Origin: Fimbriosthenelais zetlandica
Lineage: Eukaryota
Direction of reading: 5' to 3'
NCBI GenBank assembly: GCA_977030845.1
Contig: OZ365112.1
Coordinates: 17,236,001-17,300,000 of the forward strand
Length of the DNA stretch: 64,000 nucleotides
Positions 6,001-60,000 of this stretch are shown here, piece by piece; the first letter of the stretch is position 1; every line of letters starts with the position of its first letter. The position numbers were made by a program.

Positions 6001-9000
6001 AATAAGAGGGCCTTATTGATAAGTATGTACATTTACAATAGTACATCTATGGTGTCTGACAGGCATGTTCCAGGCTTATGACAACCTGTGGTAAGAGCCT
6101 TGAAGAAGGACATTATGACCAGAAAAGCTCAGTTAAAACTACGATCCGTGTAGGCCTAAACAAGGAAATATTGCAAATTTATTAAATGTGGTCAAATAAT
6201 GTATGTTTTAAAGCAGTGGGAGCAATTATAGCCAATCTCACAACATAGGTACACCTTATTTTGCATGCGTCCAGGTCAGCATAGCATGTACACCTGATAC
6301 AAACCTGCAATTACTTGCACCACTTAGATGGCAAGGTGGCCATAGACTGCATAGAGACTCTATGTCCGCTAACGAGTACTGGAGGCCCGGCCTGCCTATA
6401 TAGGGCATCTTCACCCATAACCCAGCTCTCCAGGGATGCACATTGGAGAAGTGTACATTACATTTGAGAATCTCACATGCCATTCATTTGAGTGTAATAG
6501 GCATACTGATAGGCCAGAGGATTCTAACGTTATCAAGCCTTTTCAAAATATACTGTAATCTATGTAATATCTGATACTTTTATCTACTCTATATTATGTA
6601 AAAGAAAGAGACCAATATCTCGTCTGAAATGCCTAAAGACAAACTGTATTCCATTGCCTGACAGTTGCATGGTGAAACATCATTTTTTTAAACGCAGACA
6701 ATAAATCAAATGCTCATACTTCAATCTCTTGAATGGAATTCTCAATCTGATCTTAAATAGCAAAGTGATAGATGATTTCATGACAATGTGAGCAGAGCAA
6801 GAATAGCCAGGAGATGAGATGCTTGTATGAGTGGATGATATAGTGGTATCTACGCCCAAAGATGACACAGAAACATCCATACCGAGATGTTTATCACTGA
6901 ACCCACATCTCTGAGGCCATCCATCACACCCTCCCAGCCAACACAAGGTCACAAAACACCAGCATCATTCTAAATCTCCAATGGAATATCTCTCATCATA
7001 AATTTTAAAAATAAATACATCAAACATGTTGACATTTCTTTTATGGGAAATCTATCTTACGTTATATGGAGGTTGTTCACCATGCATGTATAAAAGATAA
7101 TGCACGCCGAGGAGAAAACACTACAGGTATCGGTACTCGATATGTGGTTACCAGACTCTTGTTTGGTGATATCCTTTGCCAACAAACTACTAATATGCCC
7201 CATTATTTTTGTCTTCCAAACCCGTCAACCATTCTTGTCTTCCAAACGCCAACGAAGCCAGCAAATAACTTGGCTGGAGTGGTCTTTCTGAAATGGTAGT
7301 TACTTCTGGTCCCATTTCACTCACTCCCATTCCCGTTAACATCCTTCCACCTCTTAATTTCCCAACCTCTTTTCCATTTGGCAAACACATTATTCAATTC
7401 TGTCCCTGACGACCATGGTCCCTGGGGTGCTGTTCCTTATCCCAAGTCCAAAGCAGCCCCAACAACCCACATCCTTGTTAATACCCAAACGTCTTGACCC
7501 CTGCCAGCATTGATCCGGGCTCTAGCCAGGCTCATCGAGCTTACCCCACCGGGACAGGCATCAGTTGTACTGAAACAGACACTTCTACCTCCCATATATA
7601 CCACAGAATAAGAGCTAAAATTAGGACAATAATCCTGACAGCAGCATAAACTGAATAAAATATTATGATGCCCAGCGGGAGAAGAAATCAGTTCCCCTAT
7701 GTACATCCTATGTACAACAGAATAGAGAACATGATTAGGGCTCAGGGGAATATGGTTTTCTAGTTTTAATAAAAATTGAAACAAATACTCAAAAGAGTAC
7801 TTGAAAGGTTTTTGCCTTTTTCTGGGCAGTCCTAAAGAGGGATGTGTTTAAGTATGACCTTCCGATTTTCCCCCGGGTTTATGTGATTGATAAAAAGAAA
7901 AATGGAAATGCCCCTTTTGTCATGCAAGGACAGGAATTGTTTGTGTTTCGGTTTCAGGTGAGCTGGATTATTTAGTTCGACTGGTCATTTCAAAGCCTTT
8001 TATAGTTACCTTTCTAAAGGATTCAGAAGTCGAAGAATCAAGGAATTCGAGACAGGTCGTCAGATAAAACGTCCACATCAAATCTGAAATAGATACAAAG
8101 ATGATTATATCACATTTCTTTGGTGATCATTGAAGCCCTTTACACATGAAGAAATGAAGATTCTGGAATCCTACATTCAAGAAAGCCCATTGGACTTCCA
8201 AAGTTATCAATCGTGTGACTATCTCAATACAAAATGTCAAACATATAAGCCTGTACGGGCCCTATGAATGCCACTCTAAAGATGTCACATTGTACCAGGG
8301 AATGAGAAAGGAATGTCTATTTCCCCCCACTTGTTGCTGCCCAAGTCACACACGGGGCGGGGTGTTCAAGCATCAATTGTGTTAACAGTGCACCATTAGA
8401 AGAAGCCATCGGCTATCTACCGGCATTGAGTGCCTGCTCCTCCTACCATTTCCCCATCGGCTTGGGGGCGAGCAGCTCTCAATGACAATCTGCTCGCACT
8501 GATTTGCTCTATCAGTGTGGGTAGAGGCCTGCGATACCAGCCCCATTAGCCGGCTACATGTTTAGGATGGCAATGTAGGTCCCCTTGGGCTATCACAAAG
8601 GCCAGAGAAGAAAGGACTGGACTGGTCCAGGCCCAACTGGACCAATCAGCAGTATCCGGGAAGGTGGTGCAATGCAAGGAGGGGACTGCTAGTCAACAGA
8701 TGGAACACGGTTTGAAAGCTGGATGACAAGATGGGCTAGCACCAAACTGCTGACAGCTATTTACTGGTGCAGAGGAAATTGGTCAGGAGCGTCTCACAGT
8801 GGGAGATGGGCTGGTAACTAGGCCTATAATGGTATGTTCCATGGACGGCTACAACTTTCAACAGATGTTCACGACTAAATGCACTTTTAAAATGTCTGCA
8901 AAGTGGAGGTTCTCAAAATCTAACTCAATTTTACTTTCACTTTCCTTTACAATCTTCTCCAATTTACAAAATGTCAAGAAAAACTACATCAAATGTCTAT

Positions 9001-57000: not shown

Positions 57001-60000
57001 ATCCATTCCTCGACACTCACAAATCCTTCCTCGACACAACTTTTACCTCAGTACAACGACTCAGATGAGATAAAGGAGAAAACCAACATGATAGAACAAA
57101 TGCAAAGAGGCGATACAATTTGACATAATTATCCCAGCAGAGCAAATCAACTGCGAGAGCTTCAATTATCGATGTGTTATCACCTAATTCATTCTCCTCC
57201 CATTATCACATCACTGTCACAAATGAGCGTGGAGGACAAGATGCCAGTTGAAAAAAACACTGTACGCAGTTTGGTAATGGGTGCAGTGGAAACAGGGGTT
57301 ATTTAATAAGAAGGGCTATATATTTATAAGAGTGAAAAGCTCTGGGTCGGAGGCTTCCCCTCCTGCTGACTTACCTAAACACCTTTGTTAGTAAGAAAGC
57401 AATAATGAGAAGTGATGTCTGCCTCGTCTAATAAACTCTAATCACTGCACTTAATTAAAGTTGCGAGGTAGCGGCTAAAGGTAGGCAGCTCCCTTGGTGA
57501 TAAGATATATTATCCCTAACTCACCGAGCACATGTTAAATGCTGGAACGTAGCATAAAATCCCATTATATGGGAATAATTTACTAACACAGAAACTCGGC
57601 AAGCTAATTGTTTCTATGGACCTAATGGCGGTTCACAATGTGAACATATCTTTCTCGATTAATAATGTAAGAGACATTTCGCCATTAAATGCAAAATAAA
57701 TGCTTTCGTCCTCAGGAAATGTTCCATGGCAGTGTTTAGTATGTCTGTGGAAATGCAGAGCAGTGGAATTCATTGGAACGAACAACTAAATGAACCAAGT
57801 TATCTCTCATATTGTCACACTGTGCATCTTCCACAAAAAAGTAAAAATATAGAAGTATCTTACTGTGGCTCATTTATAGCAGGCATGGCGACAGCCAAGT
57901 TCTGAAGCGATATGACTTTATGCGTTGGTGTGTCAAACTAATGATATGCCTGAATACAACTACAGAAAATTGCATACAGCGATGGTGTTAGAACTAAGGG
58001 CAAACGACAAGTACGAAGATGGAAATAGACAGTGAGATAATGTTAAATGTAAGGATGAAAGCAGCTGCTGCTGATTGTGTATTACAGTTGTCAGAATGAA
58101 TACTGGAGCCTACTGGATGAGTAGACCACCATACAACCAACATAGACAGTATGTACAGACTGTTAAAGGTAGAGACTACATGAAGGCTATATGTGTACAT
58201 ATATGGAATATCTCGGTTTTATGAAGAAGGTAACTTAGCCAGACAATACATCATAACATGTCAAGTAAAGTTTGCATTCCCTGTACAACACATCTCATAT
58301 GTATAATTCATGACAATAGAAAAAGATATATGGAAAAGACATCAGTCAGCGAAAAGGCTTACTGTTAATGCGGGGCGATGTGAAGGAGGGATAAGCTAAT
58401 ACCCTATCCCAACACACAAAATGGTCACTTATACTTATTACAAATAATAGTTAAGCCGCTGAAAGGAAATGTAGAAATACCACTGAAAACAAATATGTTA
58501 GCAAAGTGTAAAGTATAGGACACTAACCTGTGGGAAGTACTGTGAGAGCCTCTTCATATACTGTGTAACACAAATCCTCTGCTTCTACGTTCATCGATCC
58601 TAATTTTAGAGACAAAAGTGTTAATATAATAACTCAGACACCAGCAGCCGAAATGTGATAATATTATATGTGGAAAACTTCAACCTAAAATTTACACCTA
58701 CCATTTTCCTGACCTCGGCCAGTGGAATGATTCTCTAGATGTCTTCTTGCAAGGGCGTCCCATGTCTTCTCCGAGTTATGATGGAATAGCTTCAAGCTGG
58801 AAAATAGTAACAATACACCGTCACAGAATTACCCCTTTATGTTCTATATTAGTTTGATTTCAAACTGACAAATATTTTAAAAGCTATACAAACATGTCAT
58901 AATAGAGTTGTTCCCTACTCCCAACAGTTGGACGCCCTGAACTGTGTAGGCAAATCTTACAAGGGCCTGTGATGTAACAGGCTCATAGCCAAACAATCAT
59001 ACCTAACTTGATACCCCCGAAATTACCCAGATCAGAGATTGTTTGGTTATGAGCCTGATATAGTAGAGACCCTTCTTGGCTTTGCCTCTGCAGTTCAGAA
59101 CGTCCAACTGTTGGGAATAGGGAACAACTCTAATAGAAACTGAATATTTCAGATAGTTATAACAATAATTCATTCACACATTTCAATACATTAATATCAC
59201 TTACTGGTCGAAAATATGATCCGCCAAGCTTTTGGCAAATGGGAAGTCTTTAAGTATGGGAAGAAAGGCCAAAACAAAGTCGATAACATCTGTAATAGAA
59301 AATACACTCCCTGAATCAAATGACATCATGGATATTATCAAGCTTTAAGGGCGATGGATTAAGAAATTTACTTCGTCAGAGGAAACTTAACAGCAGAGTC
59401 AGTTGTGAACAACAGTAAGCTATGAAAATAAGTAAGTTAACGAAATATATATATATTATAGTAAGGAATACAACAGTGGCAAAAAAGACATACTTGGGAC
59501 TTGGTCTACAGCCTGTTGGAATACTACTTCAGCAATCTTTCCATCCACTACCACATCAGCTGTTTCTGAATCATCCTACAAATCATAAGTTGAGAAGTAA
59601 TATATTTTAATATTACAAACGTTCTTTATGCATTTAGATAATATTCAATCAATCATAAGTCAGAAAGCCAATGCCTTCATATCCACATTGATATTGCTTA
59701 GAAATAATAAGCTTAAGATGGGAACAACCAATGTTGCATGCCAATATATATGCAAAACTTACAACATCCATAAGTGCAATACCAAGGACCTCTCTTCGTT
59801 TCTTCAACTGTAAAAAAAAATCGCATGAATTAATAGGTAAATTAAATTGACCAGTAATTATATTCACACATATGGTATATATTTTGGTGATCCTTCAAGT
59901 TAATTACCCATTTCGGTTTAATAAAGAAGCCGTAGTTAATTTGTATTCGATTAAACTGACGACAGTACCTTATCAACGTTGAGTAGCTCCATTCGAAAAT

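What the first reader, a model, noticed from the sequence alone, without database searches (positions are those of the whole stretch)
8084..58527. One 50-kb intron in an otherwise compact housekeeping gene, hosting an antisense gene
Seen: introns 1-13 of UTP6 are 102-446 bp, then intron 14 is 50,444 bp and intron 15 is 7,657 bp, so intron 14 is more than 100 times the largest upstream intron. Exons 14, 15 and 16 are phase-compatible and collinear with UTP6. Inference: the intron may have grown by capturing a whole + strand transcription unit with its regulatory DNA. The two genes would then be transcribed through each other, with possible transcriptional interference or delay of a ribosome-biogenesis gene in cells expressing the nested gene. 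An assembly join is the mundane alternative.
Basis: partly seen in the sequence, partly recalled or inferred. Interest (0 to 1): 0.65.

Follow-up and report, generated by a model that had tools for sequence, protein, structure and literature searches.

The report
Long UTP6 intron with nested gene
A ribosome-biogenesis gene (UTP6) with tiny introns has one 50-kb intron that carries a small membrane-protein gene on the opposite strand, which is an ordinary "gene within a gene" arrangement.

Summary
Introns 1-13 are 102-446 bp, intron 14 is 50,444 bp (8084..58527) and intron 15 is 7,657 bp. All are GT..AG and the frame is kept.

Searched exon by exon, exons 1, 2, 8 and 14 identify UTP6 and are collinear with it. 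Exons 15 and 16 gave no hit alone, but neither did control exons 12 and 13. The joined model was not searched.

The intron holds one convincing coding segment, a 265-codon + strand ORF at 46151..46948. It has the strongest period-3 signal in the window, and 0 of 2000 local shuffles reach its length. It encodes an N-terminal membrane helix and a disordered acidic tail, with no known family.

Nothing else in the intron is recognisable. There are no N runs, no duplicate exon 15 and no compositional break, so a misassembly is unsupported but not excluded.

Growth of the intron by gene capture and transcriptional interference remain untested. The ORF is only 1.6% of the intron. This is a new member of a known kind, of low interest.

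The parts
58528..62407 (-). Compact 5' part of the UTP6-like gene: CDS exons 1-14 with introns of 102-446 bp; ATG at 62407
   Evidence: 3-frame print. Splice sites and lengths. Exon 1 matches Pfam U3_assoc_6 positions 1-22 (E 0.0037) and exon 2 matches positions 24-51 (E 6.8e-9, 36.0 bits against a cut-off of 24.7). Exon 8 matches human UTP6 chain 7mq8_LP residues 141-182 (E 1.8e-9) and yeast Utp6 residues 146-186. Exon 14 has human UTP6 residues 305-322 as its only PDB hit (E 0.58).
8084..58527 (-). Intron 14: 50,444 bp, phase 1, donor GTTAGT, acceptor ...TCTATTTCAG
   Evidence: No N. No Rfam match at gathering score or at E<=0.1. No tRNA. No internal repeats. No Pfam hit in any of the 285 + strand ORFs of 40 aa or more.
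8010..8083 (-). Exon 15 (74 nt, phase 1 in, phase 0 out)
   Evidence: No PDB or Pfam hit on its own. No second copy in the window.
353..8009 (-). Intron 15: 7,657 bp, donor GTAACT
275..352 (-). Exon 16 (78 nt, phase 0), followed by donor GTGAGT; the gene continues beyond the window
   Evidence: No PDB or Pfam hit on its own.
46151..46948 (+). Nested ORF: 265 codons plus TAG, start context CCACCATGA, in-frame TAA at 46139-46141. It encodes one membrane helix (about residues 5-31), a basic juxtamembrane stretch and an acidic, disordered tail.
   Evidence: 0 of 2000 shuffles reach 265 codons; codon positions 1 and 2 resemble the UTP6 exons; period-3 score 9.33 against 3.53 for the next segment outside the ORF
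46023..46042 (+). Candidate + strand splice acceptor (pyrimidine-rich, ending CAG) 108 nt upstream of the ATG. If used, the 5' UTR would contain 4 upstream ATGs.
   Evidence: Read; upstream ATG positions. Inference only.
46961..47042 (+). First poly(A)-signal-like hexamers (ATTAAA at 46961 and 47037) after the stop. AATAAA occurs at 47643 and 47905.
   Evidence: consensus matches only
62801..63300 (.). CpG-rich segment upstream of the UTP6 ATG (o/e 1.30, 33 CpG), the strongest in the window and a likely promoter region

Best explanation
Intron 14 is a genuine, very long phase-1 intron of a non-human metazoan UTP6 orthologue. Inside it, on the opposite strand, lies an independent gene whose whole coding sequence is one exon (46151..46948). 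That gene encodes a small single-pass membrane protein: about four residues outside, one membrane helix, a basic juxtamembrane stretch and a roughly 210-residue acidic, disordered, presumably cytoplasmic tail. The host polymerase reads through the nested gene in antisense, and the whole 50 kb is removed as one intron. The nested gene is transcribed from its own promoter. What is shown: the exon and intron coordinates, the phases, the UTP6 identity of exons 1, 2, 8 and 14, the coding character of the ORF, and its membrane helix. What is inferred: that exon 14 is spliced to exon 15 in vivo, that the ORF is expressed, the topology of the protein, and any effect on the host. At a few kb per minute, 50 kb would add tens of minutes of transcription time; that rate is general knowledge, not a call. 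The nested coding exon explains under 2% of the intron's length. The remainder is unique, unannotatable DNA at the same G+C as the flanks.
For: The exon model and the 15 of 15 GT..AG introns. Collinear exon-wise hits to UTP6: exons 1 and 2 to Pfam U3_assoc_6 positions 1-22 and 24-51, exon 8 (model residues about 142-181) to human UTP6 141-182, exon 14 (about 295-319) to human UTP6 305-322. Exon 15 is 74 nt, so skipping it would break the frame. The window has no N. No second copy of exon 15 or 16 exists; the best non-self hit is E 0.034 on the wrong strand. Composition is continuous: G+C is 0.415 in intron 14, 0.403 in intron 15 and 0.427 in the upstream flank. The + strand AT skew is positive in 23 of 25 2-kb windows of the intron (0.067 overall), as in the short introns (0.128) and intron 15 (0.069), against 0.001 upstream of the gene. 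For the ORF: 0 of 2000 local shuffles reach 265 codons, and G at codon position 1 (0.34) and A at position 2 (0.37) match the UTP6 exons (0.32, 0.37). Its period-3 score of 9.33 is the window maximum against a mean of 1.04 and SD of 0.83. Kyte-Doolittle 19-residue maximum is 2.56 at residues 7-8, residues 32-52 carry net +6, and the tail carries net -21. AlphaFold gives a helix over residues 2-51 with pLDDT 86-96 over the first 30.
Against: Exons 15 and 16 gave no PDB hit at E<=10 and no Pfam hit when searched alone, so their UTP6 homology rests on phase, splice sites and open frame. I also recall a resemblance, but that is not a call. Control exons 12 and 13 also failed, so this failure is uninformative rather than negative. 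The intron-14 donor GTTAGT and the intron-15 donor GTAACT are off consensus at +3 or +5. The + strand GC skew of intron 14 (+0.027) has the opposite sign to that of the short introns (-0.083). The only intergenic control for the skews is 1.6 kb. By whole-sequence score exon 8 matches PRP6 better than UTP6, so on its own it says 'HAT repeat'. The ORF has no Pfam family (best E 0.1) and no PDB relative. Atlas scores are all below 0.9, recognition is low, and the tail gave no usable hit. Other frames over the same stretch are also open (177 aa on +, 91 aa on -). Four ATGs lie between the candidate acceptor and the start. There are no expression data.
Confidence: 0.65

Rival explanations
1. Assembly artefact. 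About 50 kb of foreign or misplaced sequence was joined between exons 14 and 15, and the true intron is short.
For: No reads were available to test it. The compact part has lower G+C (0.34-0.36 in 58-62 kb) than the rest (about 0.41).
Against: The window has no N. Two precise joins would be needed to keep the order, strand and phase of exons 14, 15 and 16. The low G+C of 58-62 kb comes from the short introns (0.328). Intron 14 (0.415), intron 15 (0.403) and the upstream flank (0.427) are alike. There is no duplicated exon or segment. AT skew and CpG depletion (o/e 0.30-0.59 in the 25 2-kb windows from 8001 to 58000) continue through both long introns.
Confidence: 0.07
2. The intron is real but the ORF is not a working gene. 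It would be a decaying pseudogene or retrocopy, or an untranslated open frame. The intron is long for unrelated reasons, such as old, decayed mobile DNA.
For: There is no family, no relative and no folded domain. Several frames are open over the same stretch. There are upstream ATGs. The searches that could show conservation were closed.
Against: The 265 codons are intact, with an optimal start context and an in-frame stop 9 nt upstream. The codon-position bias and period-3 signal are far above every other segment of the 64 kb. The layout of a hydrophobic helix followed by a basic stretch is organised. No mobile-element protein domain appears in 285 + strand ORFs or in the 150 longest - strand ORFs.
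Confidence: 0.15
3. Regulatory-landscape ('bystander gene') reading. UTP6 is a housekeeping bystander whose long introns 14 and 15 are kept because they hold enhancers for a neighbouring or nested tissue-specific gene. This is compatible with the nested gene being real.
For: Two adjacent long introns sit in a gene that is otherwise short-introned. The 50 kb is unique sequence without internal repeats or mobile-element ORFs. [quoted passage not shown]
Against: No conservation data could be obtained. UTP6 does not occur in the main text of PMC3514665 (0 occurrences), and its supplements were closed. No developmental regulator is visible in the window. Lack of intra-window repeats does not show lack of genome-wide repeats.
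Confidence: 0.15

Closest known systems
Opposite-strand nested protein-coding genes in long introns (general class)
   Same: The whole coding sequence lies inside one intron of a host gene, on the other strand, as a single coding exon. [quoted passage not shown]
   Different: Nothing differs in kind. Here the transcript ends and the expression of the nested gene are unknown.
[quoted passage not shown]
   Same: A single-pass membrane-protein gene on the opposite strand of a large intron.
   Different: LRRTMs have a large LRR ectodomain and belong to a named family. The ORF here has almost no ectodomain and no family. The host gene is different.
2mit in intron 11 of Drosophila timeless2 (PMC3786989, search-listing abstract only)
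   Same: A protein-coding gene in the opposite orientation inside an intron of a broadly acting host. The listing states that intronic genes make up about 6% of fly genes.
   Different: Different host, and no relatedness was shown between that protein and this ORF.
EVI2A, EVI2B and OMG inside an NF1 intron (recalled textbook example, from no call)
   Same: Small membrane-protein genes with single coding exons, antisense within a large intron.
   Different: No sequence relation was tested or claimed, and the host is different.
Transmembrane adaptor-like proteins (LIME1, opalin, poxvirus A36R appeared among the nearest Atlas clusters, scores 0.86-0.88)
   Same: The architecture only: a very short outside part, one membrane helix, and a long disordered tail with tyrosines (5 Tyr, one in a Y-E-N context).
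   Different: All scores are below 0.9, recognition was low, and the tail alone gave no usable hit. No homology was shown, so this is not a member.

Membership tests
UTP6 (U3 snoRNA-associated protein 6) | N-terminal U3_assoc_6 domain (Pfam PF08640) | tested here: met
   Exon 2 alone scores 36.0 bits (cut-off 24.7), E 6.8e-9, profile positions 24-51. Exon 1 matches positions 1-22, E 0.0037.
UTP6 (U3 snoRNA-associated protein 6) | HAT repeats collinear with solved UTP6 chains | tested here: met
   Exon 8 matches human 7mq8_LP residues 141-182 (E 1.8e-9) and yeast Utp6 residues 146-186. Exon 14 matches human residues 305-322 as the only PDB hit (E 0.58). The positions agree with the running residue count of the model. 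By total score exon 8 matches PRP6 better.
UTP6 (U3 snoRNA-associated protein 6) | Exons 15 and 16 continue the same protein | tested here: inconclusive
   No PDB or Pfam hit for either exon alone. Control exons 12 and 13 also gave none. Phase, splice sites and open frame fit. The joined model was not searched.
UTP6 (U3 snoRNA-associated protein 6) | Full-length protein (human chain 597 aa) | not testable with these tools
   Only 369 codons lie in the window. The rest is beyond the left end.
Nested (intronic) gene, opposite strand | Coding sequence wholly inside one host intron, on the other strand | tested here: met
   The ORF at 46151..46948 (+) lies inside 8084..58527, 11.6 kb from exon 14 and 38 kb from exon 15.
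Nested (intronic) gene, opposite strand | Own promoter and poly(A) site inside the intron; independent transcript | not testable with these tools
   Only consensus-level hints: ATTAAA at 46961, a candidate acceptor ending at 46042, and a CpG peak at 33801-34300 with o/e 0.92.
Nested (intronic) gene, opposite strand | Real protein-coding sequence | tested here: met
   Intrinsic evidence only: 0 of 2000 shuffles, codon-position bias, and the period-3 maximum of the window. No homologue or expression evidence.
Transmembrane adaptor proteins | Sequence homology to a named member | tested here: not met
   No Pfam family, no PDB hit, Atlas scores below 0.9.
Genomic regulatory block bystander gene | Conserved non-coding elements in the introns and a linked developmental regulator | not testable with these tools
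   No related genomes could be reached. Only the long-intron prediction is met.

The most novel reading that the evidence does not exclude
The ORF is a lineage-restricted (orphan) single-pass membrane adaptor gene that settled in, or arose within, a UTP6 intron. The surrounding 50 kb of unique DNA is its private regulatory landscape. Antisense firing of the nested promoter in particular cells would then throttle or delay production of an essential small-subunit processome factor.
Probability: 0.07. Interest if true: 0.45.

Novelty: new member of a known kind. Interest (0 to 1): 0.2.

Why it matters
If confirmed, this is one more host/nested pair, in which an essential ribosome-biogenesis gene must transcribe over 58 kb of intron for 1.1 kb of coding sequence. 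It could serve as a test case for intron delay (PMC4209130, abstract) or for antisense interference (PMC3192792) in this organism. The unnamed membrane protein also deserves annotation. Nothing here challenges current understanding. The practical value is a checked gene model, including a 21-nt exon, and a flagged unannotated ORF.

Tried and rejected
- Pfam scans found nothing real. All 285 + strand stop-to-stop ORFs of 40 aa or more overlapping the intron gave 0 families at E<=0.01 (150, 135). Of the 350 - strand ORFs of 40 aa or more in 1..58527, I scanned the 150 longest (56 aa or more). They gave only two single-member DUF hits (E 0.0011 and 0.0078), as expected by chance over 150 queries. 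The other 200 were not scanned.
- Rfam found 0 matches at gathering score and 0 at E<=0.1. There were 0 tRNAs.
- Repeat searches found nothing inside intron 14.
- A position-specific log-likelihood score trained on the 1.1 kb of UTP6 exons did not discriminate. The ORF ranked 20th of 235, so I dropped the score.
- Atlas on the ORF gave a best score of 0.89, leads only. Atlas on the tail gave no usable hit.
- Fetching a solved UTP6 chain by its PDB id for pairwise comparison with exons 15 and 16 was not accepted. I dropped that step.
- Two review papers were not held.
- A search for papers holding 'UTP6' and 'nested' returned 8, none about gene structure judging by their listings.
- Not used, because closed or irrelevant: the search for homologous proteins, the search of protein representatives, the metagenome and viral contig collections (all closed), and genome contigs, the phage, plasmid and E. 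coli collections (prokaryotic only). Homologues of the ORF and orthologous intron sizes therefore stayed unchecked.
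Full report
**Source of the window.** The window has no N and no soft-masking, so there were no masked stretches to respect. I take the contig to be non-human. Where a solved human UTP6 chain aligns to exon 14, only 10 of 18 residues are identical. The 5' introns are 102-446 bp. The organism was not identified and I did not try to trace it.

**The observation.** I printed 58400..62500 on the minus strand in three frames and read the two distal exons directly. 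This gives 16 coding exons:
- 62407..62316 (ATG at 62407)
- 61910..61826
- 61379..61338
- 61059..60988
- 60849..60829 (21 nt)
- 60704..60657
- 60479..60416
- 60277..60159
- 60001..59969
- 59807..59763
- 59575..59494
- 59289..59205
- 58796..58702
- 58599..58528
- 8083..8010
- 352..275

The introns are 405, 446, 278, 138, 124, 177, 138, 157, 161, 187, 204, 408, 102, 50,444 and 7,657 bp. All 15 are GT..AG with pyrimidine-rich acceptors. Phases carry through every junction. The exons sum to 1107 nt (369 codons), and no exon peptide holds a stop. Exon 16 is followed by a GTGAGT donor, so the gene continues beyond the left end. The human chain is 597 residues.

**Identity, searched exon by exon.**
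- Exon 2 alone passes the Pfam gathering score for U3_assoc_6 (36.0 against 24.7 bits, profile positions 24-51).
- Exon 1 matches profile positions 1-22.
- Exon 8 matches human UTP6 (7mq8_LP) residues 141-182 at E 1.8e-9 and yeast Utp6 residues 146-186. By summed score it matches the ten-repeat PRP6 better, so alone it says 'HAT repeat'.
- Exon 14 has a single PDB hit at E<=10, human UTP6 residues 305-322, E 0.58.

These positions agree with the running residue count of the model (exon 8 about 142-181, exon 14 about 295-319).

Exons 15 and 16 alone gave no PDB hit at E<=10 and no Pfam hit. As a control I searched exons 12 and 13, which lie inside the compact part. They also gave nothing. The failure therefore reflects short, divergent queries and is not evidence against exons 15 and 16.

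The joined (spliced) model was not searched or folded. The UTP6 homology of exons 15 and 16 thus rests on three things: phase, splice sites and open frame; the fact that exon 15 is 74 nt, so skipping it would break the frame; and a resemblance that I only recall.

**Is the intron an artefact?** Nothing in the sequence points that way.
- There is no gap.
- There is no second copy of exon 15 or 16. The best non-self tblastn hit for exon 15 is E 0.034 on the wrong strand.
- There is no duplicated segment inside the intron.
- The lower G+C of 58-62 kb comes from the short introns (0.328). Intron 14 (0.415), intron 15 (0.403) and the flank upstream of the gene (0.427) are alike.
- The + strand AT skew is positive in 23 of 25 2-kb windows of the intron (one is zero, one negative). 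It is 0.067 overall, against 0.069 in intron 15, 0.128 in the short introns and 0.001 upstream of the gene. That fits one minus-strand transcription unit running through the whole stretch.

Against this reading, the GC skew of intron 14 (+0.027) has the opposite sign to that of the short introns (-0.083), and the intergenic control is only 1.6 kb. The donors of introns 14 and 15 (GTTAGT, GTAACT) are weaker than most of the others. Only reads can exclude a misjoin.

**What the intron holds.** Only one segment looks like coding sequence, a + strand ORF at 46142..46948 with an ATG at 46151.
- Its start context is CCACCATGA, and a TAA lies in frame 9 nt upstream.
- None of 2000 shuffles of the 807-nt stretch gives an ORF of 265 codons. 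The mean longest is 92 and the maximum is 205.
- Base use at codon positions 1 and 2 matches the UTP6 exons (G1 0.34 against 0.32, A2 0.37 against 0.37), unlike the other long ORFs.
- In a 351-nt sliding scan of the whole window, the two top period-3 scores (9.33 and 6.34) both fall on this ORF. The next score is 3.53, the mean 1.04 and the SD 0.83.

The product has one strongly hydrophobic stretch at about residues 5-31 (Kyte-Doolittle 19-residue maximum 2.56). Residues 32-52 carry net +6, and the tail carries net -21 with 17 His and 5 Tyr. AlphaFold on the single sequence gives a confident helix over residues 2-51 (pLDDT 86-96 for the first 30) and low confidence elsewhere (mean pLDDT 45). 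By the positive-inside rule, which is established knowledge, the tail would be cytoplasmic.

No family was found. The best Pfam hit has E 0.1 and PDB gave none. The nearest Atlas clusters all score below 0.9 and share only the architecture: a MUC1 fragment, poxvirus A36R, opalin and LIME1. The tail alone gave no usable hit.

The transcript structure is open. A good acceptor ends at 46042, but it would put four ATGs in the leader. ATTAAA follows the stop at 46961. The strongest CpG peak inside the intron is at 33801-34300 (o/e 0.92), which is modest.

**The rest of the intron.**
- No Pfam family at E<=0.01 in any of the 285 + strand ORFs of 40 aa or more.
- Only two chance-level DUF hits in the 150 longest of 350 minus-strand ORFs in 1..58527.
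- No Rfam match, even at E<=0.1, and no tRNA.
- No tandem or dispersed repeat within the window.

So about 98% of the intron is unexplained unique DNA. Genome-wide repeats and conservation could not be assessed, because the protein and contig collections that could reach eukaryotic relatives were closed.

**How it most likely works.** This is a real long intron with an independent opposite-strand gene inside it. The host polymerase transcribes the nested gene in antisense and the spliceosome removes it with the intron. The cost to the host is transcription time. This is the 'intron delay' idea (PMC4209130, abstract). There may also be polymerase collision or promoter occlusion when both genes fire in the same cell.

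The literature passage I read gives mixed evidence. About 63% of nested human genes are antisense and 41% are single-exon, some showing negative correlation with the host. A study of 109 human and 752 fly pairs found no correlation and favoured neutrality (PMC3192792, introduction passage).

The ORF is only 1.6% of the intron.

A compatible rival is that UTP6 is a 'bystander' whose long introns hold regulatory DNA. [quoted passage not shown] UTP6 is absent from that paper's main text, and its supplements were closed.

**Verdict.** The arrangement is a new member of a well-known kind. Interest is low (0.2). The useful outputs are a checked gene model and an unannotated membrane-protein ORF.

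Noticed in passing
window 58900-59135 (inside UTP6 intron 12): An inverted repeat with 99-nt arms, 82% complementary, 38 nt apart, resembling a miniature inverted-repeat element. It makes up 236 of the 408 bp of intron 12, one of the larger 'short' introns.
   Followed up: partly
window 60829-60849 (-): Exon 5 of the model is a 21-nt micro-exon in phase 0, flanked by a good acceptor and a GTAAGT donor. Automatic annotation could easily miss it.
   Followed up: partly
short introns 1-13 (58600-62315) versus introns 14 and 15: The short introns have G+C 0.328, whereas both long introns and the upstream flank have 0.40-0.43. The short introns are the compositional outliers, not the long one.
   Followed up: partly
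window 62801-63300: The only clear CpG-rich segment of the window (o/e 1.30, 33 CpG in 500 bp), 400-900 bp upstream of the UTP6 ATG. The rest of 1-62 kb is CpG-depleted, with o/e 0.30-0.64 per 2 kb. It is probably the promoter and possibly bidirectional.
   Followed up: no
window 58521-58527 and 8003-8009 (-): The donors of the two long introns (GTTAGT, GTAACT) depart from the GTRAGT pattern seen in 8 of the 13 short introns. This is unexpected for introns that need efficient long-range pairing.
   Followed up: no
window 20833-21714 (+): Two ORFs of 183 and 109 aa lie in the same frame, separated by a single stop. The first is the second-longest open frame in the window. It has no Pfam hit, no coding-like base bias and no period-3 peak, so it is probably chance or a very old relic.
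   Followed up: partly
window 63794-63992: Short direct repeats (42-47 nt, 87-88% identical, about 144 nt apart) near the right end, upstream of the gene.
   Followed up: no
window 46130-46688, other frames: The stretch under the nested ORF is also open in a second + frame (177 aa) and on the minus strand (91 and 87 aa). This fits a stop-poor, 49% G+C coding segment, but it is a reminder that ORF length alone overstates the case.
   Followed up: partly
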